From positions 32,265 through 96,264 of the forward strand of contig JAZDNV010000001.1 of NCBI GenBank assembly GCA_043799385.1: a stretch of 64,000 nt of DNA, given 5' to 3'. The notes under the pieces are model-generated. The model ran no database searches. It saw only the letters and a list, made by a program, of their open reading frames with translations, and was not told where the DNA came from. Origin of the DNA: Candidatus Aenigmatarchaeota archaeon (lineage in GTDB: Archaea; Aenigmatarchaeota; Aenigmatarchaeia; GW2011-AR5). The translations under genes and the position numbers were made by a program. Within the stretch, counting starts at the first letter, position 1, and each line of letters starts with the position of its first letter. This document shows positions 743 through 54,814 of the stretch, one piece after another.

Positions 743-903
743 TAGCCCTGCCAGGATTTTCTCAACCATTTCTTTCCTTCAACGCTTTCTTTTAAGAAAG
801 GGCTGCTTCGAACCTGGGTCTCAAGGTTTCTCTCTGTTTTGTGTCATTTTGTTACGAAGTTTAGACCAGAGCCTCGCATCCTTGACCACTAGACTACAGG
901 GCT
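743..903 (-). tRNA. tRNA-Gln (anticodon CUG) with two introns: a canonical 38-nt intron at 37/38 and a roughly 50-nt intron inside the T-loop at 59/60
   Basis: Hand fold of the minus strand: acceptor AGCCCTG/CAGGGCT plus discriminator A; D-arm GTCT-AGTGGTCAA-GGAT; anticodon stem CGAGG/CCTTG with loop CTCTGG^A (U33 present, anticodon CTG); variable loop AGAC; T-stem CCAGG/CCTGG with loop TTCGAA^T. Removing 38 nt and 50 nt gives a 73-nt canonical cloverleaf. An A1-U72 pair and discriminator A are typical of archaeal tRNA-Gln. Confidence 0.6.
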
Positions 904-937
904 ATCAATAAGAATTAAAGAGAGGAAAGGATTAAAA

Positions 938-1195
938 TCATCTTTCCATATCCTGCAGGGCCCTGCTGCCGTTTTTTGTTATTATGTAGCAGGTGGAGCC
1001 AATAGGATTTATCGTCGTGACGAGATTCTTCTCTATGAGGCCGCGGGTCGCCGAATCTATTATCACGTTCAAATCCTTCCCCGCATTGCCATCGTCTTTG
1101 ATGATTTTTTTCAACTCGTTCTTTGTCACTAGGCTGGACTCTCCTATCTTCCTCAGCAATTTTTCCTCGATTTTTGTCAGACTCATTTTAATCAA
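938..1195 (-). CDS. Small winged-helix DNA-binding protein (MarR/TrmB-like fold), function unknown
   Basis: 85-aa ORF with an HTH-like core (SLVTKNELKKII...GLIEKNLV). It overlaps the upstream DJ-1 gene by 8 nt, so it is probably co-transcribed. It belongs to a set of similar small wHTH ORFs in this window. Confidence 0.45.
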   Translation of the reverse strand: MIKMSLTKIEEKLLRKIGESSLVTKNELKKIIKDDGNAGKDLNVIIDSATRGLIEKNLVTTINPIGSTCYIITKNGSRALQDMER

Positions 1196-1724
1196 CTGCC
1201 ATTTGTTCTCTTAGCTTTTTTTCAACGCCCTTGCCAGAAATTATTTCAACTATTTTCAACGCGAACTCTATTGCCGTTCCTGGACCCTTGGATGTTATAA
1301 CATTTTTATCAACGATAACCTTTGCATCACGCACTCTGGGCAATTCTTTTTCCAAACCGGTAGCTATCGTTCCTATTCTGTCCTCCATTATCCCTGCCTT
1401 TGCGAGCACAGAAGGCGCACCGCATATGGCTGCTATCAATTTTTTCTTCTTCTCAAAATTCTTTACCAGATTGATAACGATTTGGCTGTTTGCAAGATTC
1501 TTGTAGCCTGGGTTACCGCCTGGTAGTATTAAAATATCATAATCGTTCGTATTGATATCACCCAGCCTTTTATCGGCCATCACGCGGACGGCATGTGAAC
1601 TTTCAACTATAGTGGAAATTAGACCTGCGACCGTTACGTCTATCTTTGCCCTGCGCAGTATATCGACTACTGCAAATGACTCGATTTCTTCAAAACCATT
1701 AGCCAAAATTACCAGAGCCTTCAT
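1188..1724 (-). CDS. DJ-1/PfpI family protein (ThiJ-like intracellular protease/deglycase)
   Basis: MKALVILANGFEEIE...ILILPGG...AICGAP is a typical class-I glutamine amidotransferase-like DJ-1/PfpI signature with the nucleophile-elbow Cys. Confidence 0.8.
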   Translation of the reverse strand: MKALVILANGFEEIESFAVVDILRRAKIDVTVAGLISTIVESSHAVRVMADKRLGDINTNDYDILILPGGNPGYKNLANSQIVINLVKNFEKKKKLIAAICGAPSVLAKAGIMEDRIGTIATGLEKELPRVRDAKVIVDKNVITSKGPGTAIEFALKIVEIISGKGVEKKLREQMAVD

Positions 1725-3019: not shown

Positions 3020-3574
3020 CTATTCATCGACGACATTTTCATTTACTTCATTAACGCCTTCTTCGCTTTCTTCTGATATCTCCTGCGGTTCTACATTTTC
3101 ATCGGTTTTTGCATCTACCTTTTCCTTCCTTGCTATACCTAGCATGAGTAGGTCATCGAAATCCTTGGCTATTCTTCTGGTTTTTCGCATGAAAGACTTC
3201 ATCGACGACTCAACGCGGTCCATTAGGCGATTAACTGTATTAGCCGGAAGCATGTAACCCTTGATAAAGCCGCTGCCGGCTGGTATTTTCACGAACTCTA
3301 TGAGGCCGATAGAACGCCACTTTCTAAGTTCTTCGTAAGTTTGCGATTGCGAAACCTGCAATATCTGCGATATCTTTTCTATCGACAACGGGATGTTATC
3401 CTTTTTCATCTTTAGCAATTCCAGAAGTAGTTCCGCATGCCTTGCCTTACTCTCTTTCCTTTTCAGTCCAAGACGCTTTACCAAAACACGGGATAGGTCT
3501 TCTAAACTCAAATCCGTCTTATGGTCAGGCGGGCTTATTCTTTGAAAAACCATATCAGATAACTTTTTTTTCAT
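3020..3574 (-). CDS. Winged-helix transcriptional regulator with acidic C-terminal tail
   Basis: HTH-like segment SIEKISQILQVSQSQTYEELRKWRSIGLIEF and a highly acidic C-terminus (EPQEISEESEEGVNEVNENVVDE). Confidence 0.5.
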   Translation of the reverse strand: MKKKLSDMVFQRISPPDHKTDLSLEDLSRVLVKRLGLKRKESKARHAELLLELLKMKKDNIPLSIEKISQILQVSQSQTYEELRKWRSIGLIEFVKIPAGSGFIKGYMLPANTVNRLMDRVESSMKSFMRKTRRIAKDFDDLLMLGIARKEKVDAKTDENVEPQEISEESEEGVNEVNENVVDE

Positions 3575-3922: not shown

Positions 3923-4609
3923 TCATATCTGACTATCTGAGATGTGTCCGTTTTTTTCAGAATTAGGGTAGAATCTTATTTTTTGTCCGCCTGACCTATG
4001 CAAAGTCACAGGCGTCTCCAGGATATGTGTTAAATACCTGTTTTTTCTCTTGTATGGTTCTTCTCCCACTATCCTTGCAATGAAGTATCCGACCAAAAGA
4101 GCCATGCCACAGGCAGCAAGATAACCAAAACCCTCTATACCTTTTTCTACCTGACCTGTGCTAACACCCTGATATATTCCTGTTCCAAGCGCAGACAGGT
4201 CTATTAGTAAATCCGTACCAACTGCAACATCTCCAACCAACTCCCATCTGTCTGCCATAGCCCTGCTGTAATCTGCTTCAGAACCAACTGATTTATTGGT
4301 AACATTGATGATATCTGCTGTCTTGAGGCTTGACCTAGATGATGGATATAAATGGATTTCTTTCACAGGAAGTTCGTATTCCTTTTTCTCCCTTCCAATT
4401 TTTTCTCTCACATGTCTCATCAACCTTCTTACAGGCTTTAGTTCGTTCATGCGCCTCGTTCTCTCAAGGTCCTCAGCTTCCTTGTATCCTTTGTAGAGGT
4501 TTTCCATGAAATCGTCTGTCAACTCTCCGTCTTTGACTATATCATCAAAGCTGTTTATTTTGACGTCTAAGGTGCTTTTTTTCTCATTGAATTCGGTAGT
4601 TATTGACAT
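3923..4609 (-). CDS. Hypothetical protein: N-terminal coiled coil plus a C-terminal glycine-zipper transmembrane hairpin
   Basis: The N-terminus is charged and helical. The C-terminal half, VGDVAVGTDLLIDLSALGTGIYQGVSTGQVEKGIEGFGYLAACGMALLVGYFIA, has GxxxG-type glycine-zipper TM segments. No known family recognised. Confidence 0.5.
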   Translation of the reverse strand: MSITTEFNEKKSTLDVKINSFDDIVKDGELTDDFMENLYKGYKEAEDLERTRRMNELKPVRRLMRHVREKIGREKKEYELPVKEIHLYPSSRSSLKTADIINVTNKSVGSEADYSRAMADRWELVGDVAVGTDLLIDLSALGTGIYQGVSTGQVEKGIEGFGYLAACGMALLVGYFIARIVGEEPYKRKNRYLTHILETPVTLHRSGGQKIRFYPNSEKNGHISDSQI

Positions 4610-4671: not shown

Positions 4672-4953
4672 CTATTTCTTCTTCTTCAGTTTCGAGAATT
4701 TCCTTAGGACGTTCTCGAAATCGCCTGCCAAATCAAGTCCGTCCTGCGTTAATTTTACGAACTTTATCCTACCCTCTTTCTCGAACTCAACAAGACCCAG
4801 GGTCATGAATATGTCTAGTAGTTTCACCGTGTGCGAATACGTGCAATCTGTTTCTTTTGCAAGGATGGATACGTAAGCGTCGCCCTTGTTTTTTATATTG
4901 AGAAGTAGTCTTACCGGCTTTCTTCTGAGAAACAATTCCTCCATCTCCGACAT
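4672..4953 (-). CDS. Small winged-helix transcriptional regulator (MarR/PadR-like)
   Basis: 93 aa; VSILAKETDCTYSHTVKLLDIFMTLGLVEFEKEGR is a recognition helix followed by a wing. Basic C-terminus. Confidence 0.55.
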   Translation of the reverse strand: MSEMEELFLRRKPVRLLLNIKNKGDAYVSILAKETDCTYSHTVKLLDIFMTLGLVEFEKEGRIKFVKLTQDGLDLAGDFENVLRKFSKLKKKK

Positions 4954-7600: not shown

Positions 7601-8818
7601 TTACGACTTTACAACAAGCGTTTTTATCCGCGGGGAAAGCCTGTAAATGAACGTCTTGTCACGCTTTTCCCTTTCAACGAGATTTTCCTGAAGCAGTATT
7701 TTCAATACGTTGTTTAACGACCGCACAGCATGCTGCCTTGACTTGTATTTTTCCAGATCGAGCATGTCGGCAATGTCGCCTGGCGAAAGCGATTTTTTGC
7801 TCAAGAAATTTATGACCTCTTTCTGCATGTTTGTCAGTCTGTCAAGAATCTTCATCGTCGTTGGCTTCTCTTCTATATCTTCGCGCAAAAGGTCGGGTGT
7901 TATTCTTCTTCTTTCCTCCTTAATTGCTAAATTAACTAGCTCGTTTGATAATCTTAAAACTTCGCGCGGAAAGCCGCCTGTCCTCTCGTATATCATATCT
8001 ATTGTTTCCGGCAGGAACGGCTCTATATCATTGCCGCCAACGCTCGCTATCCTCTTTCTAATCAACTCAAACGTTTCTTCTTTTGTTAGGGATAAAAGCT
8101 CTATTCTGGCCACGATTCTTTTTCTTAACGTTTCGAGTTTGTCTTTTATATGGTCCTCGAATATAGGCAAACCTGATAAAATAATAGACATGTTTTCCAC
8201 CTGGTCGCTCAGAACGCGGAGCCATTCCAGAATATCGATATCCGCTTCATGCGATTCGTCAAACATTATAATCAGGTATTTATTTCTCAATTTTTTGTTC
8301 AGAAAACCGGAAATATCATACGTATTTTTTATGTTAGGGTTAAATGGCCTTAAAAACCATGAAATCCTGAATTTTTCTTTAAATATCCTCACAAATTCAT
8401 CCGGCTTGTAAGGTGGTTTTGCGATGTAAATATGTTCATAACCTAGGGGAAGATTGTTAGAAACCCATTTTAGCAAGGTTGTCTTTCCAGATCCCGTTGG
8501 ACCTGTAACTAGTATTATCTTATGCTTTTCTTCCAGCAATGATAGTATCTCATCCCGTTGCTCACTGTAGCCGACTGATATAGAAGGCGTTATTCTGAAC
8601 GTGAACGGGTTAGCAGACCAACCAACATCGTTGAGCCATTTTTTGACTATTTTAGGTTCTAATCTGGCAGTTTTATGGGTTTTTTCGTATTTTTTCTCTT
8701 CTTTTTCTACTCTAGCTTCTCTCTTCTCTTCTATTGGCTTTTCTATGTTAGGGATAACTGCCACGCTTGGAGCTGTATTTTTGCTGCTCTCGTCGCTAAC
8801 TGTATTCTCATCAACCAT
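7601..8818 (-). CDS. Divergent Orc1/Cdc6-like AAA+ ATPase with C-terminal winged helix and a charged N-terminal extension
   Basis: Walker A GPTGSGKTTLL, Walker B MFDESH, and a C-terminal wH domain (KEVINFLSKKSLSPGDIADMLD...). The AAA+ plus wH architecture is that of Orc1/Cdc6, but the sequence differs from the canonical copy at 25558. It sits next to a dense inverted repeat cluster. Confidence 0.6.
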   Translation of the reverse strand: MVDENTVSDESSKNTAPSVAVIPNIEKPIEEKREARVEKEEKKYEKTHKTARLEPKIVKKWLNDVGWSANPFTFRITPSISVGYSEQRDEILSLLEEKHKIILVTGPTGSGKTTLLKWVSNNLPLGYEHIYIAKPPYKPDEFVRIFKEKFRISWFLRPFNPNIKNTYDISGFLNKKLRNKYLIIMFDESHEADIDILEWLRVLSDQVENMSIILSGLPIFEDHIKDKLETLRKRIVARIELLSLTKEETFELIRKRIASVGGNDIEPFLPETIDMIYERTGGFPREVLRLSNELVNLAIKEERRRITPDLLREDIEEKPTTMKILDRLTNMQKEVINFLSKKSLSPGDIADMLDLEKYKSRQHAVRSLNNVLKILLQENLVEREKRDKTFIYRLSPRIKTLVVKS

Positions 8819-9900: not shown

Positions 9901-10401
9901 ATGCGCTGCTTTGTTTCAATCGACGTTGATAGTAGGTTAAAAGAAGCAGCAATCAACCTGCAAAATCAGATACCGGGCGATGTCAAGCTCGTGGAGCCAG
10001 AAAACCTGCATTTCACGCTTGAGTTCCTAGGTGAAATAAGCAATGCATCAGTGATAGAAGAACGTCTGGCTAAAATAGCAGGTGAATTTGAGCCATTTAT
10101 AATTAACATAAGAGGGATCGGCGTATTTCCTGATATGAATTATATCCGTGTCGTCTGGCTGGGTGCAGAAGAGCTTTCTAACCTACAAAGCGCTGTTAAT
10201 CCAAAAGAAGCGACGCCTCATCTAACGATAGCTCGTGTACGCTCAGTGAAGGACAAGGAAGCACTTAAGGCTTTCATAGAAAAGCATAAAGACATAGATA
10301 TTGGCCAGATGCTCGTTGACAAAATCAAACTAAAGAAGTCAACGCTAACGCCAAGCGGGCCTATATACGAGGATATAAGGGTTTTTGAGTTGAGGGTATG
10401 A
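9901..10401 (+). CDS. thpR: RNA 2',3'-cyclic phosphodiesterase (2H phosphoesterase, ThpR/LigT family)
   Basis: Two H-x-T-x motifs (HFTLEFLG and HLTIARV) in the expected spacing for the 2H superfamily. Confidence 0.75.
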   Translation: MRCFVSIDVDSRLKEAAINLQNQIPGDVKLVEPENLHFTLEFLGEISNASVIEERLAKIAGEFEPFIINIRGIGVFPDMNYIRVVWLGAEELSNLQSAVNPKEATPHLTIARVRSVKDKEALKAFIEKHKDIDIGQMLVDKIKLKKSTLTPSGPIYEDIRVFELRV

Positions 10402-25420: not shown

Positions 25421-25509
25421 TCTCCATTTGAAACGAGGGGGTGTGTTGTGGTGGTGTTAATTCAAAACAAAAAAAGATATACCACCAACCCTATTTTCCA
25501 GTAGAGATA
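25421..25509. promoter_or_regulatory. Predicted oriC core: two inverted ORB-like elements flanking an AT-rich spacer
   Basis: Plus-strand TCTCCATTTGAAACGAGGGGGTGTGTTGTGGTGG at 25421..25456 closely matches the archaeal ORB consensus (CTCCAnnnGAAACGnAGGGGT). An inverted copy at 25482..25507 reads CTCTACTGGAAAATAGGGTTGGTGG on the other strand. The spacer is ttaattcaaaacaaaaaaagatata. A further AT-rich stretch lies at 25328..25375. Immediately upstream of orc1/cdc6. Confidence 0.6.
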
Positions 25510-25557
25510 TGTTTATATATACTCCAAGAGAAAAGTAGGTATATTCTTGGTGGTGTG

Positions 25558-26766
25558 ATGGAAGCAATAGCCAGTAATATTTTTTCCCAACATATAAACA
25601 AACCCTCGTTGTTTAAGAATAAAAATATATTGAACTCTACGTTCATACCGCCAAAAATATCATTCAGAGACGTTGAGATTGAACAGGCGGTTTCGGTACT
25701 TTCTCCGGCCCTGAGGAACTATAAGCCAAACAACATATTCATCTATGGCACGTGCGGAACTGGCAAGACCGTGGTTGTCAAATACGTCCTTAACCAACTC
25801 GAGGCTTTAGGCAAGAATAACATCAAAACAGTTTACGTCAACTGCAAAATGAAGCGCGTTGCAGATACAGAATACCGCTTGCTGGCGTGTCTGCTGCGCG
25901 AACTCGGTGTTACAGTGCCGGATACAGGCCTGCCTACAGACGTTCTTTACAGAAGATTTTTTGAGAAGGTTGACTCAAAACAGCATATAGTCCTAATCGT
26001 GCTTGATGAAATTGATACGCTATTCAACAAAGTAGGCGACGAATTCCTTTACAACCTGATAAGGATAAACAACGAGCTGAAAAACGCGCACATAAGCATA
26101 GTTGGGATAACCAACAACCTTTCTTTCCGGGAGGGCCTGGATGTAAGGATACGCTCTTCTTTGGGCGAAGAGGAAATTTTATTCAAGCCCTACAACGCCA
26201 TACAACTGAAAAACATACTTTCAGAAAGAATAGCTGAAGGGTTTTGCGAGAACGTCGTTTCCGAGGATGTCTTGGGCAGATGTGCCGCATTGGCTGCGCA
26301 GGAGCATGGCGATGCAAGGCGTGCACTTGATATGTTAAGAACAGCAGGCGAGCTTGCAGAGCGCATGGGCGATACAGAAATAACTGATACGCATGTTGAT
26401 TTGGCGGAGAAGAAGATTGACCTTGACCGTGTCGTCGAGACGATAAAGGCCCAGCCGAAACAGTCACAGGCGGTTCTGTGCGCGATAATGGCGTTGGAAA
26501 AACAAAGCAATGGCAAATGGAGCGATTCGCGGTTGCTCACAGGCAATGTTTTCTTGAAATATAAGGAGATAGTCAAGAACAACGGTTTGCGCGCCTTGAC
26601 ACAAAGAAGGATAAGCGACCTGATAGGTGAATTAGATATGCTCGGCGTAATCACTGCGAAGGTTATTTCCAAGGGAAGATACGGCAGAACGAGGGAGATA
26701 TCGTTGGCAATGGCGGATGAATTAAAGGACAAGGTAAAGGCGACCCTCTGGGAAAGATTTTTATGA
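25558..26766 (+). CDS. cdc6: Orc1/Cdc6 replication initiator
   Basis: Walker A GTCGTGKT, VLDEID Walker B, and a C-terminal winged helix. Start set at Met40 (MEAIASNIF...) because the upstream part of the ORF-track ORF overlaps the ORB elements. Confidence 0.85.
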   Translation: MEAIASNIFSQHINKPSLFKNKNILNSTFIPPKISFRDVEIEQAVSVLSPALRNYKPNNIFIYGTCGTGKTVVVKYVLNQLEALGKNNIKTVYVNCKMKRVADTEYRLLACLLRELGVTVPDTGLPTDVLYRRFFEKVDSKQHIVLIVLDEIDTLFNKVGDEFLYNLIRINNELKNAHISIVGITNNLSFREGLDVRIRSSLGEEEILFKPYNAIQLKNILSERIAEGFCENVVSEDVLGRCAALAAQEHGDARRALDMLRTAGELAERMGDTEITDTHVDLAEKKIDLDRVVETIKAQPKQSQAVLCAIMALEKQSNGKWSDSRLLTGNVFLKYKEIVKNNGLRALTQRRISDLIGELDMLGVITAKVISKGRYGRTREISLAMADELKDKVKATLWERFL

Positions 26767-27979: not shown

Positions 27980-30589
27980 ATGTTATTTCAATTATTGGAT
28001 GTTGACTATTTTTTGAACGGAAACAAACCGGTCGTAAGATTATACGGCAAGACAGAAAACGACAACTCAATATGCGTATTCTGCGAGAATTTCCAGCCTT
28101 ATTTCTACATAAAAGAAAAAACCGACGTGCCCGGTGCGATAAAGATAGAAGAGGTCGAGAAATTCCTGCCTCTAGGTTATCATGAAAAACCAATAAAGCT
28201 ACAGAAAGTAACTCTGACCAATCCGCAGGACGTCGGTGTAGTGAGAGAGCAGCTGGCCGCAGACGGCGTAGAGAGCTATGAAGCAGATATATTGTTCAAA
28301 TACAGGTTCATGATCGACCATGGTCTGCACGGCATGGACTGGATTGAATTCGAAGGAAGAAAAACGCACACGAATCTGGTTAACATACCTGCATACGTTG
28401 CAAGCAGCATAAAGAGAGTCGAGAGCTATTCGAACGCGCCGCTGAAATACATGTCGTTTGATATTGAATGCCTGCCGAGTGACGTTAAGCGGTCAATAGA
28501 CGCAAAGATGGACCCTATAATAATGATAGCGCTGACTTTCTACCCGGATTACAGGAACAAAAAAAACCTCGTTCTTGTCGCAAAGCCGGTGAATGAAAAC
28601 GATGCTAAAGGATTCAGAAGCGAGAAAGAGATGCTTGAGGAATTCCTGAACATAATAAGGGTGTACGACCCGGACATAATCACGGGTTATAACATAAATT
28701 CTTTTGATCTGCCGTACCTGCTTGAGAGGTTAAAACAAAACCATCTGCCAGCGAATTTCGGCCGCTGCAACGACAAGTACGTCTACTCAAAAAAATTCGG
28801 CATGACAGAAGAATGCACAATCAACGGAAGAATAGTAGTTGACCCATACCAACTGTTGAAAAGAGACCCGTGGCTCAAATTCGTACGTTACGACCTTAAT
28901 ACGATTGCAAAGGAGTTGCTGGGCGAAGCGAAATTGGACGTTGAGTACAGCGAAATGCCAGAGCTTTGGAACGGCACACGGGACGAACTAAGCAGGTTCA
29001 TCGAATATGCGAGAAAAGATGCAGATCTATCAATACGCTTAGTTCTTGAGAGAAGGATGCTTGACAAATTCATAGAGCTTGCGAAGGTATCCGGATTGCT
29101 TTTACAGGATACGTTCGGCGGCCAATCCACGAGGGTAGAAACGATGATTCTGCACGAATTCAAGAAAAGGAATTTCGTGATGCCGTCTAAGCCAACTTCT
29201 TCTGAACTTACAAAACGATTGAAAGAACGGGAGAAGAAAGGATTGAAGGGCGCGACAGTTTTAGAACCTAATAAAGGATTTTATTCTGACTATGTGCTCG
29301 TACTGGATTTCAAAAGCCTGTACCCGAACATAATCAGGACGTATTGCATTTCGCCTGACTGCCTACTGCTTGATGGCAGCGATGGTATTAAATCACCGTC
29401 AGGCGCGGTTTTTGCGAAACGTGAAGTTCGCGAGGGCGTTTTCCCGTTTCTTCTAACAAAGCTGCTTGAAGCAAGGGGAATTGCAAAGAAGGCGATGAAA
29501 ACCGTAGGCAAAGAAGAGAAAAAGATACTCAATGCAAAACAATTGGCGTTAAAGGACATGGCCAACTCGTTCTACGGCTATACAGGCTACATACGTGCAA
29601 GGCTGTATATGATAGACGTGGCTAATGCAGTGACGAGTTATGGCCGTGAAAATATCGAAAGGACGAAAAAACTGATAGAGGATACCTTTAAAGTGAATGT
29701 CATCTACGGCGACACTGATTCCATATTCCTGAAGGTGAGTGTAAAGAGCATAGACGAGGCGAATGAGCTAGGCAGTAAAATATCAAAATTCGTGACCGAC
29801 AACCTTCCAGGCTACCTTGAGTTGGAATTCGATAAGATATACCGCTCGTTCCTCATACTGACAAAGAAGAGATATGCCGGTTGGAAGTTTGACTATTCAG
29901 ATGGAAAATGGGTTGACAGCATAGACATGCGCGGCATCGAGACAGTCAGACGCGATTGGTGCTCGCTGGTTACAGAAACAATGAACGAGATACTCAACAT
30001 AATCCTGAAAGAGGGCGATGTACAGAAGGCGCTTAATCGCATGCGCGATGTCGTAGAAAAGATAAAGAGAAATGAAATACCAATGGAAAAACTTACTGTT
30101 GTGAAGGAAATAACGAAACATGTGGATTCATATGAAGGGATACTGCCGCACATCGAGCTGGCAAAAAAGCTCACTAACAGGAACCCGCACGACGTACCAA
30201 AAGTTGGCGACAGGATTGGTTATATTATAATAAAAGGCAATCAGCTGCTGTCCAAGAGGGCAGAAGACCCGAAATATGCGGAAAAAAACAGATTACAGAT
30301 AGATTCTGATTACTATCTGTCGTCGCAGCTATTTCCGCCGATCGAAAGAATATTGAACGCCGTCGGGATAACGAGGAGCGAGATGCTTGGCAACGGAAAA
30401 CAGATGAACATATTCGACATGGTCAACGGGAAAAAAAGCTCAAGCAATGAGTTAGCAGGTTGGGAAGGATTTGTCTGCAAAAAATGCAACAAATCCTACA
30501 GAAGGATGCCGCTGCAAGGTCTTTGCGAGTGCGGCGGCGAACTTTTGCTCAGCTACCACGGCTCTGTTGGCAACAAGATAAAGATTTAG
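27980..30589 (+). CDS. polB: Family B DNA polymerase, complete, with exonuclease and polymerase motifs and a C-terminal zinc finger
   Basis: Exo I FDIE, polymerase motifs DFKSLYPNII and YGDTDS, and C-terminal CKKCN...CECGG. Confidence 0.9.
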   Translation: MLFQLLDVDYFLNGNKPVVRLYGKTENDNSICVFCENFQPYFYIKEKTDVPGAIKIEEVEKFLPLGYHEKPIKLQKVTLTNPQDVGVVREQLAADGVESYEADILFKYRFMIDHGLHGMDWIEFEGRKTHTNLVNIPAYVASSIKRVESYSNAPLKYMSFDIECLPSDVKRSIDAKMDPIIMIALTFYPDYRNKKNLVLVAKPVNENDAKGFRSEKEMLEEFLNIIRVYDPDIITGYNINSFDLPYLLERLKQNHLPANFGRCNDKYVYSKKFGMTEECTINGRIVVDPYQLLKRDPWLKFVRYDLNTIAKELLGEAKLDVEYSEMPELWNGTRDELSRFIEYARKDADLSIRLVLERRMLDKFIELAKVSGLLLQDTFGGQSTRVETMILHEFKKRNFVMPSKPTSSELTKRLKEREKKGLKGATVLEPNKGFYSDYVLVLDFKSLYPNIIRTYCISPDCLLLDGSDGIKSPSGAVFAKREVREGVFPFLLTKLLEARGIAKKAMKTVGKEEKKILNAKQLALKDMANSFYGYTGYIRARLYMIDVANAVTSYGRENIERTKKLIEDTFKVNVIYGDTDSIFLKVSVKSIDEANELGSKISKFVTDNLPGYLELEFDKIYRSFLILTKKRYAGWKFDYSDGKWVDSIDMRGIETVRRDWCSLVTETMNEILNIILKEGDVQKALNRMRDVVEKIKRNEIPMEKLTVVKEITKHVDSYEGILPHIELAKKLTNRNPHDVPKVGDRIGYIIIKGNQLLSKRAEDPKYAEKNRLQIDSDYYLSSQLFPPIERILNAVGITRSEMLGNGKQMNIFDMVNGKKSSSNELAGWEGFVCKKCNKSYRRMPLQGLCECGGELLLSYHGSVGNKIKI

Positions 30590-32799: not shown

Positions 32800-34407
32800 A
32801 TGTCTGGTATCAATGCCGTTTATTCTGCTGACAGGAAATTTACTGGAAATGATGTTATTGAGTGGACATCTTCTGCCGAGGTTCAAGAGCAACCGAGGGG
32901 CGAGGCTGGCGCAGGAGTCGCTATGGCCGATCAATGGGGAGAGATAAAAATAGAGACGAATATGGGCCCTGTCAGAATAGCTATACCCCTAGAAACTCTG
33001 TTAAAGGTAGGTAACCCATCAGTTTACGTTGTCGCGGGGCACACCAGATACGCGAGAGAAGAAAACCCGAGTATCATAAATACGCAGCCAATAAAAATTG
33101 AAACCGAGCGATATGCAACTGCTGTGGCAGCTGATAGCAAGCTTGTTGGATGGAATGAAATAAACACGTGGTTCGAATATAATCCGAAAAGAACCATGAC
33201 AGGAGCAGAGGTCTTTGGTAGAGTATTCTTAGATGAGTTAGAAAGAACAAATGGCAATATAAGAGATGCCGGTGAAAAATTCTTCTATAGAATGGATGGA
33301 AAGGGATTTTATTCTGTTGTAATGCTTGTTAAGGAAAAGGACAAAAATGATGTTAGATTGGTGGCTATAAGAGACCCTTATTCAGGATTGCCGTTTTGCT
33401 GCGCGAAGAGAGATGAAACGTATTTCTTTAGTTCAGGAACGTACCCCATGGAGCACGAAGGAATTAATCTCAGAGATATAAAAGAAGTACCGCGGGCAAG
33501 CGTAACAGTGATATCAGAGAACGGTATTGATACTAATGTATATGAACAATACAAAAAACCAATAAGAACATGTGTATTTGAAAGGGTATATTTTGGCAGT
33601 CCTTATGACAGGGTATTAACAGAGTTGGGTCCAAAATTCTATGAGCTATATGATAAATATCATAAATTATTGACAGCTAATCCCGAATTCAAAGAAACGC
33701 CAAGTAATTATATGATAAGAGCCGTCTTGGGTGCTTGTTGGGCTGAAAGGCACCGAGAGTTGGCGAACGAAGTTGACAAAGCCATACCAATAGTTTATAC
33801 TGGAACTGGGGTCACACACGGTATATCGAGGGTACTCGGTTTGCCAGAAGAACATGATGCTTTATTTAAGACGTATGCACCTAGAACATTTCAGATATCA
33901 GATAAAGAACTAAGGAAGATGGAAGTCGACTTGAAGAACGCAGGTTTCGCAGAGTTTATAAAGTCGTTTAGGATTCTCACAGGCGATGACAGTATTGTTA
34001 AAGGCGGGGTAGGTGGTTATTACAGCAAGAAGAGAGGCGTATTGGGATTATTTGAGCGTCTAGGAGCTACATCACTTCTAATGGCAATCTCGTATTCTCC
34101 AATGCCTTATCCATGCATAAGAGGGTTCGCTCCTTATCATCTGAGAGAAAGGATGGCGGCCGAGGGCATGGCACACCTCCCGGAAGAAACACAAGAAAAA
34201 TTAGTAGGAGAAAAAATGGGCACAGGTTTAAAAATACCGTTTAGTGTGGGCTATCAACGAAAACAAGATACATACGATATTTTCGGTCCTCACCACTGTT
34301 TTGCTTGTATGGATGGAAACTACCCTGTAGATGTTAAATACGTACCAGACTGGATCAGGTCACAAAAAGATATAGCTGATACGCTTGCAAATATCAGGTG
34401 GGTCTAA
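32800..34407 (+). CDS. Class-II glutamine amidotransferase (Ntn hydrolase)-like domain protein with Ser in the nucleophile position and a large uncharacterised C-terminal region
   Basis: The N-terminus MSGINAV parallels the MCGI start of Ntn amidotransferases, and GHTRYAREENPSIINTQP resembles the GH-x-R-Y/W-(S/A)-T oxyanion segment. No PP-loop or PRTase motif in the C-terminal half. Confidence 0.45.
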   Translation: MSGINAVYSADRKFTGNDVIEWTSSAEVQEQPRGEAGAGVAMADQWGEIKIETNMGPVRIAIPLETLLKVGNPSVYVVAGHTRYAREENPSIINTQPIKIETERYATAVAADSKLVGWNEINTWFEYNPKRTMTGAEVFGRVFLDELERTNGNIRDAGEKFFYRMDGKGFYSVVMLVKEKDKNDVRLVAIRDPYSGLPFCCAKRDETYFFSSGTYPMEHEGINLRDIKEVPRASVTVISENGIDTNVYEQYKKPIRTCVFERVYFGSPYDRVLTELGPKFYELYDKYHKLLTANPEFKETPSNYMIRAVLGACWAERHRELANEVDKAIPIVYTGTGVTHGISRVLGLPEEHDALFKTYAPRTFQISDKELRKMEVDLKNAGFAEFIKSFRILTGDDSIVKGGVGGYYSKKRGVLGLFERLGATSLLMAISYSPMPYPCIRGFAPYHLRERMAAEGMAHLPEETQEKLVGEKMGTGLKIPFSVGYQRKQDTYDIFGPHHCFACMDGNYPVDVKYVPDWIRSQKDIADTLANIRWV

Positions 34408-34673
34408 TAGTGTATTTCAAATCCAACTTCATTTTTAACCATTTCCCAAACGATTTCGAGATTACCGATTCTTGCACTTATCGGACCCTTCTTCAACAGC
34501 GTTATCAACTCATTCAATTTATCTTCTCCACCCTCTGCTACTAATTCAACGCGACCATCATCCAGATTCTTTACCCAGCCGCTCAATCCTAATTCTAATG
34601 CATTCCTTCTTGTAAAGTCGCGGTAGAAGACGCCCTGCACGCGGCCGGAGACGAAGATATGACAGCGTTTCAT
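34404..34673 (-). CDS. acyP: Acylphosphatase
   Basis: VSGRVQGVFYRDFTRRNALELGLSGWVKNLDDGRVELVAEG is the acylphosphatase signature. The ORF-track start at 34748 runs through the tRNA-Leu gene, so it is trimmed to Met26. Confidence 0.8.
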   Translation of the reverse strand: MKRCHIFVSGRVQGVFYRDFTRRNALELGLSGWVKNLDDGRVELVAEGGEDKLNELITLLKKGPISARIGNLEIVWEMVKNEVGFEIHY

Positions 34674-34684
34674 AATTATCGAAA

Positions 34685-34799
34685 TGCGGGGGACGAGATT
34701 TGAACTCGCGGAGCGATTCGTCGCTAAGACGCATAAAGCGTCATGCACTAACGCACAAGGTCCTCAACCTTGCCCCTTTGGCCACTTGGGTACCCCCGC
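34685..34799 (-). tRNA. tRNA-Leu (anticodon GAG) with a roughly 29-nt insertion in the variable-arm region (non-canonical intron)
   Basis: Minus strand: acceptor GCGGGGG/CCCCCGC plus A; D-stem CCC/GGG with an 11-nt loop; anticodon stem CAAGG/CCTTG, loop TTGAGGA; T-arm GCGAG-TTCAAAT-CTCGT. There are 46 nt between the anticodon stem and the T-stem against about 16 expected; candidate variable arm AGCGACGAATCGCT. Confidence 0.65.
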
Positions 34800-38944: not shown

Positions 38945-39035
38945 TAATGCTCCGTACGGGATTTGAACCCGTGTCAGCGGCTCGAAAGGCCACCATCCTA
39001 TCGGCTCTATGTAGTTGGCCGGGCTAGACTAACGG
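38945..39035 (-). tRNA. tRNA-Glu (anticodon UUC) with a roughly 17-nt non-canonical intron in the D-arm region
   Basis: Acceptor GCTCCGT/ACGGAGC plus A; anticodon stem GTGGC/GCCGC, loop CTTTCGA; T-arm ACGGG-TTCAAAT-CCCGT. The D region is 37 nt against about 19 expected; the extra block is CTACATAGAGCCGATAG. Confidence 0.65.
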
Positions 39036-39051
39036 AGCTTGCCTATAAAAA

Positions 39052-39949: not shown

Positions 39950-40050
39950 TGGGTCGGGGCAGAATTGAACTGCCGGCCTCCACGTTGTAAGCGTGGCGTC
40001 ATACCAATTTCCGCAGACGGCTTTAGCCGTCAACGCTAGACCACCGACCC
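39950..40050 (-). tRNA. tRNA-Val (anticodon UAC) with a 28-nt non-canonical intron in the D-loop
   Basis: Acceptor GGGTCGG/CCGACCC plus A; anticodon stem CCACG/CGTGG, loop CTTACAA; T-arm GGCAG-TTCAATT-CTGCC; variable AGGCC. The D-arm GTCTAG[CGTTGACGGCTAAAGCCGTCTGCGGAAA]TTGGTATGAC becomes canonical once the hairpin-forming 28-nt block is removed. Confidence 0.65.
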
Positions 40051-40053
40051 GAG

Positions 40054-40186
40054 CGCTGGGAGAGGGAAGTTCCCAACCAATTCTTTCCGTTACCGCTTTT
40101 CAAGAAAGGGTTGTTTTGAACCCTCGCTCCCTTTCGGGAACAGGTTTAGCAAACCTGCGCCTTAAACCAGACTTGGCTATCCCAGC
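40054..40186 (-). tRNA. tRNA-Ser (anticodon GCU) with a 47-nt intron inside the T-loop at 59/60
   Basis: Acceptor GCTGGGA/TCCCAGC with discriminator G; D-stem GCC/GGC with a 13-nt loop; anticodon stem CAGGT/ACCTG, loop TTGCTAA; long variable arm TTCCCGAAAGGGAGC; T-stem GAGGG/CCCTC with loop TTCAAA^T interrupted by 47 nt. Confidence 0.65.
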
Positions 40187-52534: not shown

Positions 52535-54814
52535 ATGTTTATTATGTTCTGCCTGCTGGACGCTGACTACATTATAGAAGGAGAGAAACCGGTAATACGC
52601 TTATTTGGAGTTGATGAGAGCGGAAAAGCGGTTATAGTCAAGGACGAGTTCAGGCCCTATTTCTACGCCCTGCCTAAAAACAAGGCGCTGTTGGAAAAAA
52701 AGCTGAAAGCAATGGATAATGTCACAGAGATAAAATACATTAAAAGAAAGATAGGCGGCGATGAAAAAAGCGTTATGCAAGTGTTCGTTGATTTACCGCA
52801 AAATCTGCAGGGGGTTCGCGACGAGATAAAGCGTATTGCGGATTGCTACGAATACTCGATAAATTTCTACAAGCGCTACCTGATAGACAAAAATTTCTAT
52901 CCACTAGACTGGATAACGGATAAGACGGAGAAAATAGAGAAGGATGATAATCCAAAGATGAAGATACTTGCATTTGACATAGAAACGGTAGATGACAGAA
53001 TCGTGATGATAAGCATCGCCGATAACACCGGATTTGAAAAAGTAATAACATCAAAGGATGAGAAAAGTATCCTTGAAGAATTTGAAGAAACGATACTGAA
53101 AACAGACCCACATATTATTGTTACGTACAACGGCGACAAATTCGATTTCGAAGTTCTTCGCGAGCGGGCAGATTATAACAAGATAGAATTAAAGCTTGGT
53201 GATGAAGCTTTCAAGTTCGCCCGCCGTGCGCACGCGAACTCTGCACGGATTTTTGGCCGCGTTCATATCGACTTGTTCAACTTCGTCTACAATATCTTAT
53301 CACCGCAACTGCAATCGGAGATACTGACGCTGAACGAAGTCTCAAGAGAGCTCGTAGGCGAAGGCAAAGAAGAGCTGTCGCTGGAAGAGATAATAAATCT
53401 ATGGAAGAATAATAGCAAAAAACTGGCAGAGTATTGCCAGAACGATTCAAGGCTGACATTAAAACTCGCGAACATGCTCCTGCCGCAAATCTTCGAGTTG
53501 GCAAAACTAAGTGGTCAACTACCTTTTGATTGCTCACGGTTGACTTATGGTCTTCTCGTCGAATGGTATCTGATAAGGAAAGCAAATGAGATGAACATTA
53601 TTGCTCCTAATCAACCGCACTGGAACGAGATACAGAAAAGGCGAGAACTAAAACCGTACAAAGGCGGCTATGTTATAGAACCGAAGCAGGGCCTGCACGA
53701 CAACATTGCTATATTTGACTTCCGCTCACTTTATCCGAGCATAATCGTTTCATTCAACATATCGCCAGAGACATTAAACTGTTCTTGTTGTAAAAGCAAT
53801 AGATACAAAGTTCCAGGAATGGATTATTATTTCTGCAAGAGGAACGAGGGTTTCATACCAAAACAAGTAAAGAAATTGATAGAGAAACGCCAGGAGATAA
53901 AAGAAAGAATGAAAAAAGCGGGTAAAGAAGAAATAAAATCTCTGGACGAGCAGCAGCGTGCAGTGAAAATAATCGCTAATGCGACTTACGGCTATCTCGC
54001 TTACCCAGGCTCAAGATGGTATTCTCGCGAGTGCAGTGAAAGCGCTGCGGCTTTTGGTCGCGACAGCATCAAGAGAACGATAAGCGAGGCGGAGAAATTT
54101 GGCTTTGACGTTCTCTACGGCGATACTGATTCGCTCTTTGTAAAGATGAAAGGAAAAGACGTAGGAAGAGAATCTGAAAAATTCCTTGAGAAGATAAACA
54201 AGTCATTGCCAGGTATGATCGAACTTGAGATGCAAGGCATTTATGAGAAAGGTTTGTTCGTTCCGCAGCGGCTAGGCAATTACGTTGCAAAGAAGAGATA
54301 CGCCTTAATCGACAAGAAAGGAACGCTAACAATACGCGGTCTCGAGACCGTGCGGCGTGACTGGTGCAAGATTGCAAGAAGTTTGCAGCGTGATGTGATA
54401 AGGCTGGTTCTTACCGGCAAAGAGAAAAAAGCGATAAAGGAAGTAAGAGAAGCGGTAAAGAGAGTCAAGGCAAGGAAAGTCTCGTTGAGCGAGCTGATGG
54501 TCACAACGCAACTAGGAAAGGCGTTGAGCGATTACAAGGCGATAGGACCGCACGTCGCAGTCGCAAAGAAACTGGAAAAGGAAGGCCATGAAATTCGTGA
54601 AGGCATGCTAATCAGTTTCATCATCACAAAAGGCCATGGTTCAATATCCGAGCGAGCCGAGCCAATAGATAAAGTCACGATAAATGATTATGACATCGAC
54701 TACTACCTGAATAACCAGATAATATCGGTCGCATTGCGGGTACTGCAGGTCTTCGGTTATAAGGAAGAAGACTTTTTGGAAGCCGGTATGAAGAAATTTT
54801 ATAAAACTAAATGA
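52535..54814 (+). CDS. Second family B DNA polymerase, complete, with intact exonuclease and polymerase motifs
   Basis: Exo I FDIETV, FDFRSLYPSII and YGDTDS are present; 759 aa. Confidence 0.85.
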   Translation: MFIMFCLLDADYIIEGEKPVIRLFGVDESGKAVIVKDEFRPYFYALPKNKALLEKKLKAMDNVTEIKYIKRKIGGDEKSVMQVFVDLPQNLQGVRDEIKRIADCYEYSINFYKRYLIDKNFYPLDWITDKTEKIEKDDNPKMKILAFDIETVDDRIVMISIADNTGFEKVITSKDEKSILEEFEETILKTDPHIIVTYNGDKFDFEVLRERADYNKIELKLGDEAFKFARRAHANSARIFGRVHIDLFNFVYNILSPQLQSEILTLNEVSRELVGEGKEELSLEEIINLWKNNSKKLAEYCQNDSRLTLKLANMLLPQIFELAKLSGQLPFDCSRLTYGLLVEWYLIRKANEMNIIAPNQPHWNEIQKRRELKPYKGGYVIEPKQGLHDNIAIFDFRSLYPSIIVSFNISPETLNCSCCKSNRYKVPGMDYYFCKRNEGFIPKQVKKLIEKRQEIKERMKKAGKEEIKSLDEQQRAVKIIANATYGYLAYPGSRWYSRECSESAAAFGRDSIKRTISEAEKFGFDVLYGDTDSLFVKMKGKDVGRESEKFLEKINKSLPGMIELEMQGIYEKGLFVPQRLGNYVAKKRYALIDKKGTLTIRGLETVRRDWCKIARSLQRDVIRLVLTGKEKKAIKEVREAVKRVKARKVSLSELMVTTQLGKALSDYKAIGPHVAVAKKLEKEGHEIREGMLISFIITKGHGSISERAEPIDKVTINDYDIDYYLNNQIISVALRVLQVFGYKEEDFLEAGMKKFYKTK

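What the first reader, a model, noticed from the sequence alone, without database searches (positions are those of the whole stretch)
743..903. tRNA-Gln(CUG) carrying two introns, one inside the T-loop at 59/60
Folding the minus strand by hand gives a perfect 73-nt tRNA-Gln only if two blocks are removed. One is a 38-nt block at the canonical 37/38 site. The other is a 50-nt block between TTCGAA and the final T of a canonical TTCGAAT T-loop. Introns at 59/60 are rare and, among archaea, are mostly known from Thermoproteales-like and some small-genome lineages. The gene sits immediately after the carB stop.
Basis: seen in the sequence. Interest (0 to 1): 0.6.

Follow-up and report, generated by a model that had tools for sequence, protein, structure and literature searches.

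The report
Two-intron archaeal tRNA-Gln gene, confirmed
This is a real glutamine tRNA gene from a tiny uncultivated archaeon (Aenigmatarchaeota), broken by two short introns, one at the usual anticodon-loop site and one at a rarer but already documented T-loop site; the same T-loop intron also sits in a nearby serine tRNA gene, so these introns seem to spread between tRNA genes.

Summary

**The gene.** On the minus strand, 903..743 is a 161-nt pre-tRNA.
- Removing 38 nt at 37/38 (865..828) and 50 nt at 59/60 (806..757) gives a 73-nt tRNA-Gln(CUG), which ARAGORN calls cleanly.
- No single-block removal restores a tRNA.

**The junctions.** Both have bulge-helix-bulge (BHB) geometry.
- Intron 1 is strict.
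- Intron 2 is relaxed: 3 of 4 central pairs plus a G·A mismatch, and a 5-bp outer helix.
- Shuffle p is about 4e-4 and 1e-3.

**The host.** It is a Candidatus Aenigmatarchaeota MAG (DPANN).

**Relatives.**
- tRNA-Gln genes in other DPANN genomes carry 59/60 introns ending in the same NGAA-AN|U60 signature.
- Three loci have the same two-intron layout: L004, L117 and L130-132.

**Prior art.** 59/60 is a published non-canonical site. An ARMAN-2 59/60 intron has been cleaved in vitro. The finding is therefore a new member of a known kind.

**Beyond the finding.**
- All five tRNA genes in the window are interrupted.
- tRNA-Ser(GCU) carries a 79%-identical paralogue of intron 2, also at 59/60.
- The orthologous tRNA-Gln in relatives has introns at different positions.
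- Several of those introns share a CTTTCTT…AGAAAG hairpin motif, which hints at intron mobility.

Splicing itself and the endonuclease type were not testable here.

The parts
866..903 (-). Exon 1 of tRNA-Gln(CUG): positions 1-37, covering the acceptor 5' strand, D-arm, anticodon stem 5' strand and loop CUCUGG
   Evidence: The first 38 nt are identical to the tRNA-Gln of L013.
828..865 (-). Intron 1: 38 nt at the canonical 37/38 site with a strict BHB. The central helix is CUCU (871..868) paired with AGAG (833..830). The 5' bulge is GG|U (867..865) and the 3' bulge is AA|A (829..827). The outer helix h' is 2 bp.
   Evidence: BHB register test h5 / H 4 of 4 / h' 2. Shuffle p = 4.4e-4.
807..827 (-). 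Exon 2: positions 38-59, covering the anticodon stem 3' strand, a 4-nt variable loop, the T-stem 5' strand and T-loop UUCGAA
757..806 (-). Intron 2: 50 nt at the non-canonical 59/60 site in the T-loop, with a relaxed BHB. The T-stem serves as helix h (5 bp). The central helix is UUCG (812..809) against AGAA (762..759), giving 3 pairs plus a G57·A mismatch. The 5' bulge is AA|G (808..806) and the 3' bulge is AA|U (758..756). The outer helix h' is CAGCC (805..801) paired with GGUUG (767..763), 5 bp. The intron contains the CUUUCUU…AGAAAG hairpin motif.
   Evidence: (shuffle p = 9.8e-4). The 3' end fits the NGAA-AN|U60 pattern of the other 59/60 introns.
743..756 (-). Exon 3: positions 60-73, covering U60, the T-stem 3' strand, the acceptor 3' strand and discriminator A73. 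No CCA is encoded.
931..937 (-). A/T-rich TATA-like box TTTTAAT, 28-34 nt upstream of tRNA position 1 and directly after the stop of the small upstream ORF (938..1195)
   Evidence: Read from the sequence. A similar TTTAATYC box lies at a similar distance in L124, L126 and L127, but not consistently in all relatives. Promoter function is inferred only.
40054..40186 (-). tRNA-Ser(GCU) gene carrying a paralogue of intron 2 at the same 59/60 site. The intron is 40114..40068 (47 nt), with BHB h5 / H 3 of 4 (A57·G mismatch) / h' 5.
   Evidence: Intron-to-intron alignment gives 37 of 47 identical positions; 0 of 20,000 shuffles reach the score, and z = 13.

Best explanation
Window 903..743 (minus strand) is a functional glutamine tRNA gene, anticodon CUG, of a Candidatus Aenigmatarchaeota (DPANN) archaeon. 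Two protein-spliced archaeal introns interrupt it.

**Proposed pathway**
1. The gene is transcribed as a 161-nt precursor, probably from the A/T-rich box about 30 nt upstream.
2. In the precursor, each intron pairs with the first four nucleotides of the loop it sits in: 32-35 of the anticodon loop, and 54-57 of the T-loop. This extends the neighbouring 5-bp stem into a bulge-helix-bulge (BHB) motif.
3. Position 59/60 is the structural twin of 37/38. Both lie between the sixth and seventh nucleotides of a 7-nt loop closed by a 5-bp stem. The T-arm plus intron 2 therefore mimics an intron-bearing anticodon arm.
4. The archaeal splicing endonuclease EndA cuts in the two 3-nt bulges of each motif.
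5. An RtcB-type ligase joins the three exons. The CCA end is added afterwards.
6. Until intron 2 is removed, T-loop nucleotides 54-57 are sequestered. The D-loop/T-loop elbow and the T-loop modifications cannot form before that.

**What is shown:** exon content, junction positions, BHB geometry, archaeal host, conservation of the architecture in relatives, and a paralogous intron in tRNA-Ser.

**What is inferred:** transcription, cleavage by EndA (which must tolerate a relaxed BHB), ligation and order of events.
For: - The spliced product is a perfect 73-nt tRNA-Gln(CUG).
- BHB ranking alone picks 37/38 + 59/60 and returns the canonical loops.
- The BHB helices are not chance: p is about 4e-4 and 1e-3.
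- No single-intron solution exists.
- The host is archaeal. The neighbouring DJ-1 protein is 100% identical to an NCBI protein from a Candidatus Aenigmatarchaeota MAG. RadA, Cdc6, PolB and Hjc are in the window.
- Among tRNA-Gln genes of other species' genomes, 59/60 introns occur in L004, L025, L031, L055, L075, L089, L109, L117 and L130-132.
- L004, L117 and L130-132 have the same 37/38 + 59/60 layout. L004 and L117 share the DJ-1 to tRNA-Gln synteny in the window's orientation. L130-132 also lie beside DJ-1, but the tRNA is in the opposite orientation.
- All 59/60 introns end in NGAA-AN|U60, the complement of the T-loop UUCG plus a 2-nt bulge. L109 has the same G57·A mismatch as the window.
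- A 79%-identical copy of intron 2 sits at 59/60 in tRNA-Ser(GCU) with the same BHB signature. Its one difference in h' keeps pairing: G·U becomes A-U.
- All five tRNA genes in the window are interrupted, so they cannot all be pseudogenes.
- Precedent: the ARMAN-2 pre-tRNA-Cys 59/60 intron with a relaxed motif is cleaved in vitro by its EndA (PMC3239211, Fig. 4B).
Against: - There is no RNA evidence of transcription or splicing.
- The central helix of the 59/60 BHB has a purine-purine mismatch, so strict-specificity EndA types would probably not cut it.
- No EndA or RtcB gene lies in the 64-kb window, so the enzyme type is unknown.
- The closest relative found, L124 (DJ-1 76% identical), lacks the 59/60 intron in the orthologous gene. 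The intron is therefore not essential to the gene.
- Thermodynamic folding predicts h and h' but not the short central helix. That is usual for BHB motifs, but it is not positive support.
- Only 64 kb of the genome was seen, so an intact second copy of the gene cannot be excluded.
Confidence: 0.87

Rival explanations
1. The locus is a decaying tRNA pseudogene. Two unrelated insertions inactivated it, and a functional tRNA-Gln(CUG) lies elsewhere in the genome.
For: - Only 64 kb of the genome is visible.
- Standard tRNA finders do not call the locus.
- The nearest relative, L124, lacks the T-loop insert.
Against: - All 21 stem pairs and all conserved loop nucleotides of the exons are intact.
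- Both inserts carry BHB geometry at exactly the junctions that restore canonical loops.
- The same architecture recurs in orthologous loci of other genomes.
- All five tRNA genes in the window are interrupted in the same way. That is implausible for pseudogenes.
Confidence: 0.05
2. The gene is real, but the junctions are mis-assigned. Adenines repeat at the exon and intron ends, so the T-loop intron could lie at 58/59 or 57/58. The anticodon-loop intron could lie at 36/37, or at ARAGORN's 35/36, which would make a CUA suppressor tRNA.
For: - Sliding the T-loop cut by 1-2 nt gives the same mature sequence.
- Two-block removal gives 54 products with all 21 stem pairs formed.
- ARAGORN's intron mode reports anticodon CTA.
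Against: - The BHB register scores 14 for 37/38 + 59/60, against 8 for 58/59 and 7 for 36/37.
- Only 59/60 places the 3' cut in a 3-nt bulge next to the T-stem.
- Every homologue is Gln (CTG or TTG), and L013 reads CTCTGG-intron-A with almost the same exons.
- The three options nearest the BHB register all keep CUG as the anticodon.
Confidence: 0.06
3. The inserts are self-splicing introns (group I or II) or transposable elements, not endonuclease-spliced BHB introns.
For: Group I introns do occur in some archaeal and Patescibacteria genes (PMC6125680 and PMC13011429; titles and abstracts only).
Against: - At 38 and 50 nt, the inserts are far too short for any ribozyme core.
- Rfam finds no intron family here, even at permissive thresholds.
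- No open reading frame fits inside either insert.
- BHB geometry is present.
Confidence: 0.01

Closest known systems
Archaeal tRNA genes with multiple BHB introns, one canonical and one non-canonical, as catalogued for Thermoproteales/Crenarchaeota, Nanoarchaeota and Korarchaeum (Marck & Grosjean 2003 and Sugahara 2007/2008, as cited in PMC4090602)
   Same: - Collinear exons.
- One intron at 37/38 plus one elsewhere.
- BHB or relaxed BHB at each junction.
- 59/60 is on the published list of non-canonical sites (PMC4090602).
   Different: - The host is an Aenigmatarchaeota (DPANN) MAG, not a crenarchaeon.
- I found no published description of this particular gene, and tRNAscan-SE/SPLITS could not be run.
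ARMAN-2 (Ca. Micrarchaeum) pre-tRNA-Cys(GCA) with a 13-nt intron at 59/60, cleaved in vitro by the ε2 splicing endonuclease (Fujishima et al. 2011, PMC3239211, Fig. 4B)
   Same: - DPANN host.
- Same 59/60 position.
- Relaxed rather than strict BHB.
- A genome in which a large share of tRNA genes is disrupted (56% in ARMAN-2; 5 of 5 in this window).
   Different: - A different tRNA (Gln and Ser rather than Cys).
- A longer intron (50 nt against 13 nt) that has a well-formed 5-bp outer helix h', so it is closer to hBHBh' with one mismatch than to hBH.
- A second intron in the same gene.
- The EndA type of this organism is unknown.
[quoted passage not shown] 2010, Mol Biol Evol, as summarised in PMC4090602)
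   Same: - Near-identical introns in genes for different tRNAs within one genome. Here these are Gln(CUG) and Ser(GCU), 79% identical, both at 59/60.
[quoted passage not shown]
   Different: - A different superphylum (DPANN).
- Only one unambiguous paralogous pair was seen, because only 64 kb of the genome is available.
- The cross-position relationships are weaker (z about 4.6-6).
- The shared pyrimidine/purine hairpin motif is, as far as I could find, not described.

Membership tests
Archaeal endonuclease-spliced (BHB) tRNA intron | Removing the intron(s) restores a canonical cloverleaf tRNA with conserved loop nucleotides | tested here: met
   - The 73-nt product has 21 of 21 stem pairs, U8, U33, T-loop UUCGAAU and A73.
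- ARAGORN calls it tRNA-Gln(ctg).
Archaeal endonuclease-spliced (BHB) tRNA intron | A bulge-helix-bulge motif at each exon-intron boundary: two 3-nt bulges separated by a 4-bp helix, with the cut sites in the bulges. Relaxed forms are accepted by broad-specificity enzymes. | tested here: met
   - Intron 1: strict 3-4-3, with h 5 bp and h' 2 bp.
- Intron 2: 3-nt bulges, a central helix of 3 pairs plus G·A, h 5 bp and h' 5 bp, so a relaxed form.
- Shuffle p = 4.4e-4 and 9.8e-4.
Archaeal endonuclease-spliced (BHB) tRNA intron | Archaeal (or eukaryotic) host | tested here: met
   - The neighbouring protein is 100% identical to one from a Candidatus Aenigmatarchaeota MAG.
- Archaeal replication and recombination genes are in the window.
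Archaeal endonuclease-spliced (BHB) tRNA intron | The host encodes a splicing endonuclease (EndA) able to cut relaxed, non-canonical BHB motifs, plus an RtcB-type ligase | not testable with these tools
   - Pfam scans found neither gene among about 58 ORFs of the window.
- The rest of the MAG could not be retrieved.
- The literature says DPANN lineages have EndAs with an extra loop linked to more disrupted tRNA genes (PMC5829648).
Archaeal endonuclease-spliced (BHB) tRNA intron | Demonstrated excision in vivo or in vitro | not testable with these tools
   No RNA data are available for this organism.
Non-canonical intron at position 59/60 | The intron lies between T-loop nucleotides 59 and 60, with the T-stem acting as helix h | tested here: met
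   - The BHB register places the 3' bulge (A, A | U60) directly against C61-G53.
- Alternative registers 58/59 and 53/54 score much lower.
- The other 59/60 introns I recovered show the same NGAA-AN|U60 ending.
Transposed / paralogous tRNA intron family (Thermoproteales type) | Highly similar introns in genes for different tRNAs of one genome | tested here: met
   The Gln(CUG) and Ser(GCU) 59/60 introns share 37 of 47 identical positions. None of 20,000 shuffles reaches the score, and z = 13.
Transposed / paralogous tRNA intron family (Thermoproteales type) | Related introns at different positions of the tRNA (canonical and non-canonical) | tested here: inconclusive
   - The motif CTTTCTT.{0,8}AGAAAG has 6 sites in 966 kb, and 5 are in tRNA introns at the D-loop, 37/38 and 59/60 (binomial 4e-13).
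- Local-alignment z is 4.6-6.0 for five introns, against -1.5 to 3.6 for 28 controls.
- The sequences are short and low in complexity, so convergence is not excluded.
Group I / group II self-splicing intron | A ribozyme core of at least about 200 nt that matches Rfam intron models | tested here: not met
   The inserts are 38 and 50 nt, and Rfam gives no intron match at gathering or E ≤ 1.
Split or circularly permuted tRNA gene | tRNA segments encoded at separate loci or in permuted order | tested here: not met
   All three exons are collinear and contiguous within 161 nt.

The most novel reading that the evidence does not exclude
The 59/60 intron belongs to a family of BHB introns, still mobile or recently mobile, that spreads among tRNA genes and among positions (D-loop, 37/38, 59/60) in Aenigmatarchaeota and neighbouring DPANN lineages. 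The family is marked by a conserved pyrimidine/purine hairpin: CYUUUCUU, a loop, AAGAAAG, then GAAAGAAA.

The window would have caught it shortly after a duplication, since the Gln and Ser copies are 79% identical. The orthologous tRNA-Gln in relatives shows gain and loss at three sites. The hairpin could be a recognition element for whatever machinery inserts these introns. That would give a comparative handle on how archaeal tRNA introns are gained, which is still unknown.
Probability: 0.35. Interest if true: 0.6.

Novelty: new member of a known kind. Interest (0 to 1): 0.38.

Why it matters
**Practical point.** A default ARAGORN run finds no tRNA in this 64-kb window, and Rfam at its curated threshold calls one borderline partial match (29.6 bits against a cut-off of 29). 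The window in fact holds five tRNA genes, all interrupted. tRNA counts, and any completeness or codon-usage inference drawn from them, could therefore be too low for genomes like this one. Kaneta et al. 2018 (PMC5829648) already suspected this for DPANN genomes.

**Biological point.** The window gives a clean example, in a DPANN archaeon, of the same intron sitting at the same non-canonical site in two unrelated tRNA genes. One orthologous tRNA-Gln gene also carries very different intron sets in close relatives.

That is the pattern described as intron transposition in Thermoproteales, whose mechanism is unknown. Seeing it in a second, distant archaeal group suggests the process is general wherever a broad-specificity splicing endonuclease exists.

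The two-intron gene itself is not surprising to a specialist.

Tried and rejected
- **ARAGORN on the raw window, and on the locus with intron mode:** it finds nothing unless the T-loop block is removed first. It then misplaces the anticodon-loop cut and calls CTA/Pyl. I rejected that call on BHB register and homology.
- **First intron-mapping script:** it broke ties arbitrarily and reported meaningless positions. I replaced it with BHB-ranked enumeration.
- **Exact-match look-up of the source contig:** I tried the DJ-1 protein and P0001, and neither is on record.
- **The single metagenome scan:** I used the intron-core pattern CCTTTCTTN{3,25}GGAAAGAANTGGTTG. It gave three chance hits in coding sequence with no tRNA context, so it added no family members.
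- **T-loop-intron scanner:** it gave false positives in L054, L084 and L093. These are intronless genes followed by a repeat of their own 3' end, and I discarded them.
- **Search for EndA or RtcB in the window:** Pfam on about 58 ORFs found none.
- **Exact boundaries of the D-arm inserts (tRNA-Val, tRNA-Glu) and the variable-arm insert (tRNA-Leu):** several registers score similarly, so these are left unresolved.
- **Conserved TATA box:** a TTTAATYC box is present in the window, L124, L126 and L127, but not at a constant distance in all relatives. I keep it only as a suggestion.
- **Readings considered and rejected:** C/D-box guide RNA (by eye, no C and D boxes in either intron), group I/II intron, transposon, and split or permuted gene.

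Full report
**1. What is there**

The minus strand of window 903..743 reads AGCCCTGTAGTCTAGTGGTCAAGGATGCGAGGCTCTGG [38 nt] ACCTTGAGACCCAGGTTCGAA [50 nt] TCCTGGCAGGGCTA.
- Joining the three upper-case pieces gives a 73-nt sequence. ARAGORN folds it as tRNA-Gln(ctg) with every stem pair formed, U8, U33, T-loop UUCGAAU and discriminator A73.
- No CCA is encoded.
- The unspliced locus is invisible to ARAGORN and to Rfam at gathering threshold.
- The ORF ending at 742 on the + strand is the C-terminal, MGS-like domain end of carB, with its frame open to the window start.

**2. Is the two-intron reading forced?**

Yes.
- No single-block removal restores a tRNA. The best gives 16 of 21 stem pairs, and ARAGORN makes no call in 2,905 single-block variants.
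- Two-block removals fix the four stems but leave 9 x 6 possible junction choices inside the two loops.
- I ranked all such solutions by bulge-helix-bulge (BHB) geometry only, using the canonical register: a 4-bp helix flanked by two 3-nt bulges, with the cut after the second bulge nucleotide.
- The best solution is 37/38 (38 nt) plus 59/60 (50 nt). Its lower BHB score is 14, against 8 for the runner-up.
- That solution also returns the anticodon loop CUCUGGA and the T-loop UUCGAAU, which the ranking did not use.

**3. Anatomy of the junctions**

*Intron 1*
- The anticodon stem is helix h (5 bp).
- Loop nucleotides 32-35 (CUCU) pair with AGAG near the intron's 3' end, 4 of 4.
- The bulges are G36 G37 | U and A A | A38.
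- The outer helix h' is 2 bp. This is a strict BHB.

*Intron 2*
- The T-stem is helix h (5 bp).
- U54 U55 C56 pair with A A G of the intron, and G57 faces an A (mismatch).
- The bulges are A58 A59 | G and A A | U60.
- The outer helix h' is CAGCC/GGUUG, 5 bp. This is a relaxed BHB.

*Tests*
- Shuffling each intron 200,000 times reproduces helices at least this good in 0.044% and 0.098% of trials.
- Free-energy folding keeps the acceptor stem, the T-stem and h'. A cloverleaf-constrained fold is within 1.4 kcal/mol of the optimum.
- Folding does not predict the short central helices. That is normal for BHB motifs.

*Geometry*
- 59/60 is the exact counterpart of 37/38: both lie between the sixth and seventh nucleotides of a 7-nt loop on a 5-bp stem.

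**4. Host**
- The DJ-1/PfpI protein encoded just upstream (1724..1188) is 100% identical to an NCBI protein named as from a Candidatus Aenigmatarchaeota MAG, on a 166-kb contig.
- The window also encodes RadA, an RPA-like protein, Cdc6/Orc1, two family-B polymerases, Hjc, HMG-CoA reductase and pyrimidine-synthesis genes.
- No EndA or RtcB gene lies in the window.

**5. Comparative evidence**

*Reference genomes.* A partly degenerate 5'-exon pattern retrieved 120 tRNA-Gln loci, mostly DPANN plus Nitrosopumilus and Thermoplasmata.
- L013 has almost identical exons, a 42-nt intron at 37/38 and an uninterrupted T-loop. This pins the exon 2 / exon 3 junction.
- tRNA-Gln genes with 59/60 introns occur in L004, L025, L031, L055, L075, L089, L109 and L117.
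- L004 and L117 have the same 37/38 + 59/60 pair.
- L031 also has a tRNA-Val with a 59/60 intron.
- All these introns end in NGAA-AN before U60. L109 has the same G57·A mismatch as the window, and L089 has G·G.

*Synteny.*
- DJ-1 lies upstream of the tRNA-Gln, in the window's orientation, in L004, L026 and L117.
- Closer relatives fetched through DJ-1 homologues add a small ORF of about 80 aa between DJ-1 and the tRNA.

*Intron sets in the syntenic gene across relatives:*

| Locus | Introns |
|---|---|
| Window | 37/38 + 59/60 |
| L124 (DJ-1 76% identical, carB also convergent) | D-loop 14 nt + 37/38 65 nt, no 59/60 |
| L125 | 37/38 only |
| L126 | D-loop only |
| L134 | D-loop only |
| L127 | D-loop 69 nt + 37/38 |
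| L130-132 (tRNA in the opposite orientation) | 37/38 + 59/60 (12 nt) |

Intron position in this one gene therefore turns over quickly.

**6. Beyond the finding**

*More interrupted tRNA genes.* A permissive Rfam scan and a purpose-built scan show four more tRNA genes in the window, all on the minus strand and all interrupted.
- Ser(GCU) at 40186..40054 has a 47-nt intron at 59/60.
- Val(UAC) at 40050..39950 has an insert in the D-arm.
- Glu(UUC) at 39038..38948 has a 16-nt insert near 20b/21.
- Leu(GAG) at 34799..34685 has an insert in the variable arm.

*A paralogous intron.*
- The Ser intron is a clear paralogue of Gln intron 2: 37 of 47 positions are identical, 0 of 20,000 shuffles reach the score, and z = 13.
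- It has the same BHB signature: h 5, H 3 of 4 with an A57·G mismatch, h' 5.
- Its single difference in h' preserves pairing: G·U in Gln, A-U in Ser.

*A shared motif.*
- The core motif CTTTCTT.{0,8}AGAAAG occurs at six sites in the 966 kb I held.
- Five of those sites are inside tRNA introns, which make up 0.23% of the bases (binomial 4e-13): window Gln 59/60, L055 Gln 59/60, L124 Gln 37/38, L127 Gln D-loop and L070 Thr(GGU) 37/38.
- Against 34 other introns, the window's 59/60 intron scores z >= 4.6 only with the Ser paralogue and five motif-bearing introns. The other 28 fall between -1.5 and 3.6.
- This suggests a dispersed intron family. The sequences are short and compositionally simple, so I treat cross-position homology as probable, not proven.

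**7. Comparison with what is known**
- 59/60 is on the published list of non-canonical archaeal intron sites (PMC4090602).
- In the DPANN archaeon ARMAN-2, a 13-nt 59/60 intron of pre-tRNA-Cys with a relaxed motif is cut in vitro by the ε2 endonuclease, and 56% of its tRNA genes are disrupted (PMC3239211).
- DPANN lineages with an extra loop in EndA show more tRNA disruption, and undetected disrupted genes were predicted there (PMC5829648).
- Near-identical introns in different tRNA genes were described as intron transposition in Thermoproteales (Fujishima 2010, via PMC4090602).
- The finding is therefore a new member of a known kind. The paralogous 59/60 pair and the fast turnover extend the transposition pattern to Aenigmatarchaeota. 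I did not find that described in the searched library.

**8. Verdict**
- Confidence is 0.87 that this is a functional two-intron tRNA-Gln(CUG) gene processed by the archaeal splicing endonuclease and ligase pathway.
- Not shown: transcription, actual splicing, and the endonuclease type.
- Interest is moderate to low for the gene itself, and somewhat higher for the intron-family observation.

Noticed in passing
window 40054-40186 (minus strand); intron 40068-40114: tRNA-Ser(GCU) gene with a 47-nt intron at 59/60. The intron is a 79%-identical paralogue of the tRNA-Gln T-loop intron and has the same relaxed BHB (h5, H 3 of 4, h' 5).
   Followed up: yes
window 39950-40050 (minus strand): tRNA-Val(UAC) gene of 101 nt with an insert of about 26-35 nt in the D-arm. 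Several junction registers score similarly, so the boundaries are unresolved. It starts only 3 nt after the end of tRNA-Ser, so the two are probably co-transcribed.
   Followed up: partly
window 38948-39038 (minus strand): tRNA-Glu(UUC) gene of 91 nt with a 16-nt insert near D-loop position 20b/21. This is about the same place as the D-loop inserts of tRNA-Gln in L124 and L126. The BHB is relaxed and the exact junction is ambiguous.
   Followed up: partly
window 34685-34799 (minus strand): tRNA-Leu(GAG) gene of 115 nt with an insert of about 21-31 nt in the long variable arm. ARAGORN and Rfam both miss it. It overlaps the annotated start of ORF 34404-34748, whose true start is probably further downstream.
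   Followed up: partly
L124, L125, L126, L127, L130-132, L134 (tRNA-Gln next to DJ-1 homologues): The orthologous tRNA-Gln gene carries a different intron set in each relative: D-loop, 37/38 and 59/60 in various combinations. This shows rapid intron gain and loss in Aenigmatarchaeota.
   Followed up: yes
window 757-806; L055 2111-2267; L124 about 1047-1198; L127 about 3370-3560; L070 (minus strand, about 4400-4560); L058 6666-6774: A pyrimidine/purine hairpin motif (CYTTTCTT, a loop, AAGAAAG, often followed by GAAAGAAA) recurs in tRNA introns at three different positions and in Gln, Thr and (degenerate) Ser genes. Five of its six strict-motif occurrences in 966 kb are inside tRNA introns; L058 carries a variant.
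   Followed up: partly
L075 4334-4464 and L117 3742-3919: The 59/60 introns of tRNA-Gln(UUG) in an Iainarchaeum-labelled MAG and an Aenigmatarchaeota-labelled MAG are clearly homologous to each other (z = 13). They are unrelated in sequence to the window's intron, so there is a second 59/60 intron lineage.
   Followed up: partly
L054 5932-6113; L084 5845-6007; L093 1219-1352: Intronless tRNA-Gln genes are followed 60-110 nt downstream by a direct repeat of their own 3' end. This looks like the att-site duplication left by an element integrated into the tRNA gene.
   Followed up: no
window 9901-10401 (+ strand): A LigT-like 2'-5' RNA ligase / 2H phosphoesterase gene, an enzyme of RNA-end chemistry. 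No link to tRNA splicing was shown.
   Followed up: no
L055 (record JAGGYO010000185.1): The record is titled 'MAG: bacterium isolate AUK180'. It nevertheless carries an archaeal-type tRNA-Gln with a 59/60 BHB intron and a homologue of window ORF 4672-4953, so the bin label looks wrong.
   Followed up: no
window 27980-30589 and 52535-54814 (+ strand); 7601-8818 (minus strand) and 25441-26766 (+ strand): One 64-kb stretch holds two family-B DNA polymerase genes, one clear Cdc6/Orc1 gene (25441-26766) and a second AAA+ ATPase with only faint ORC/Cdc6 similarity (7601-8818).
   Followed up: no
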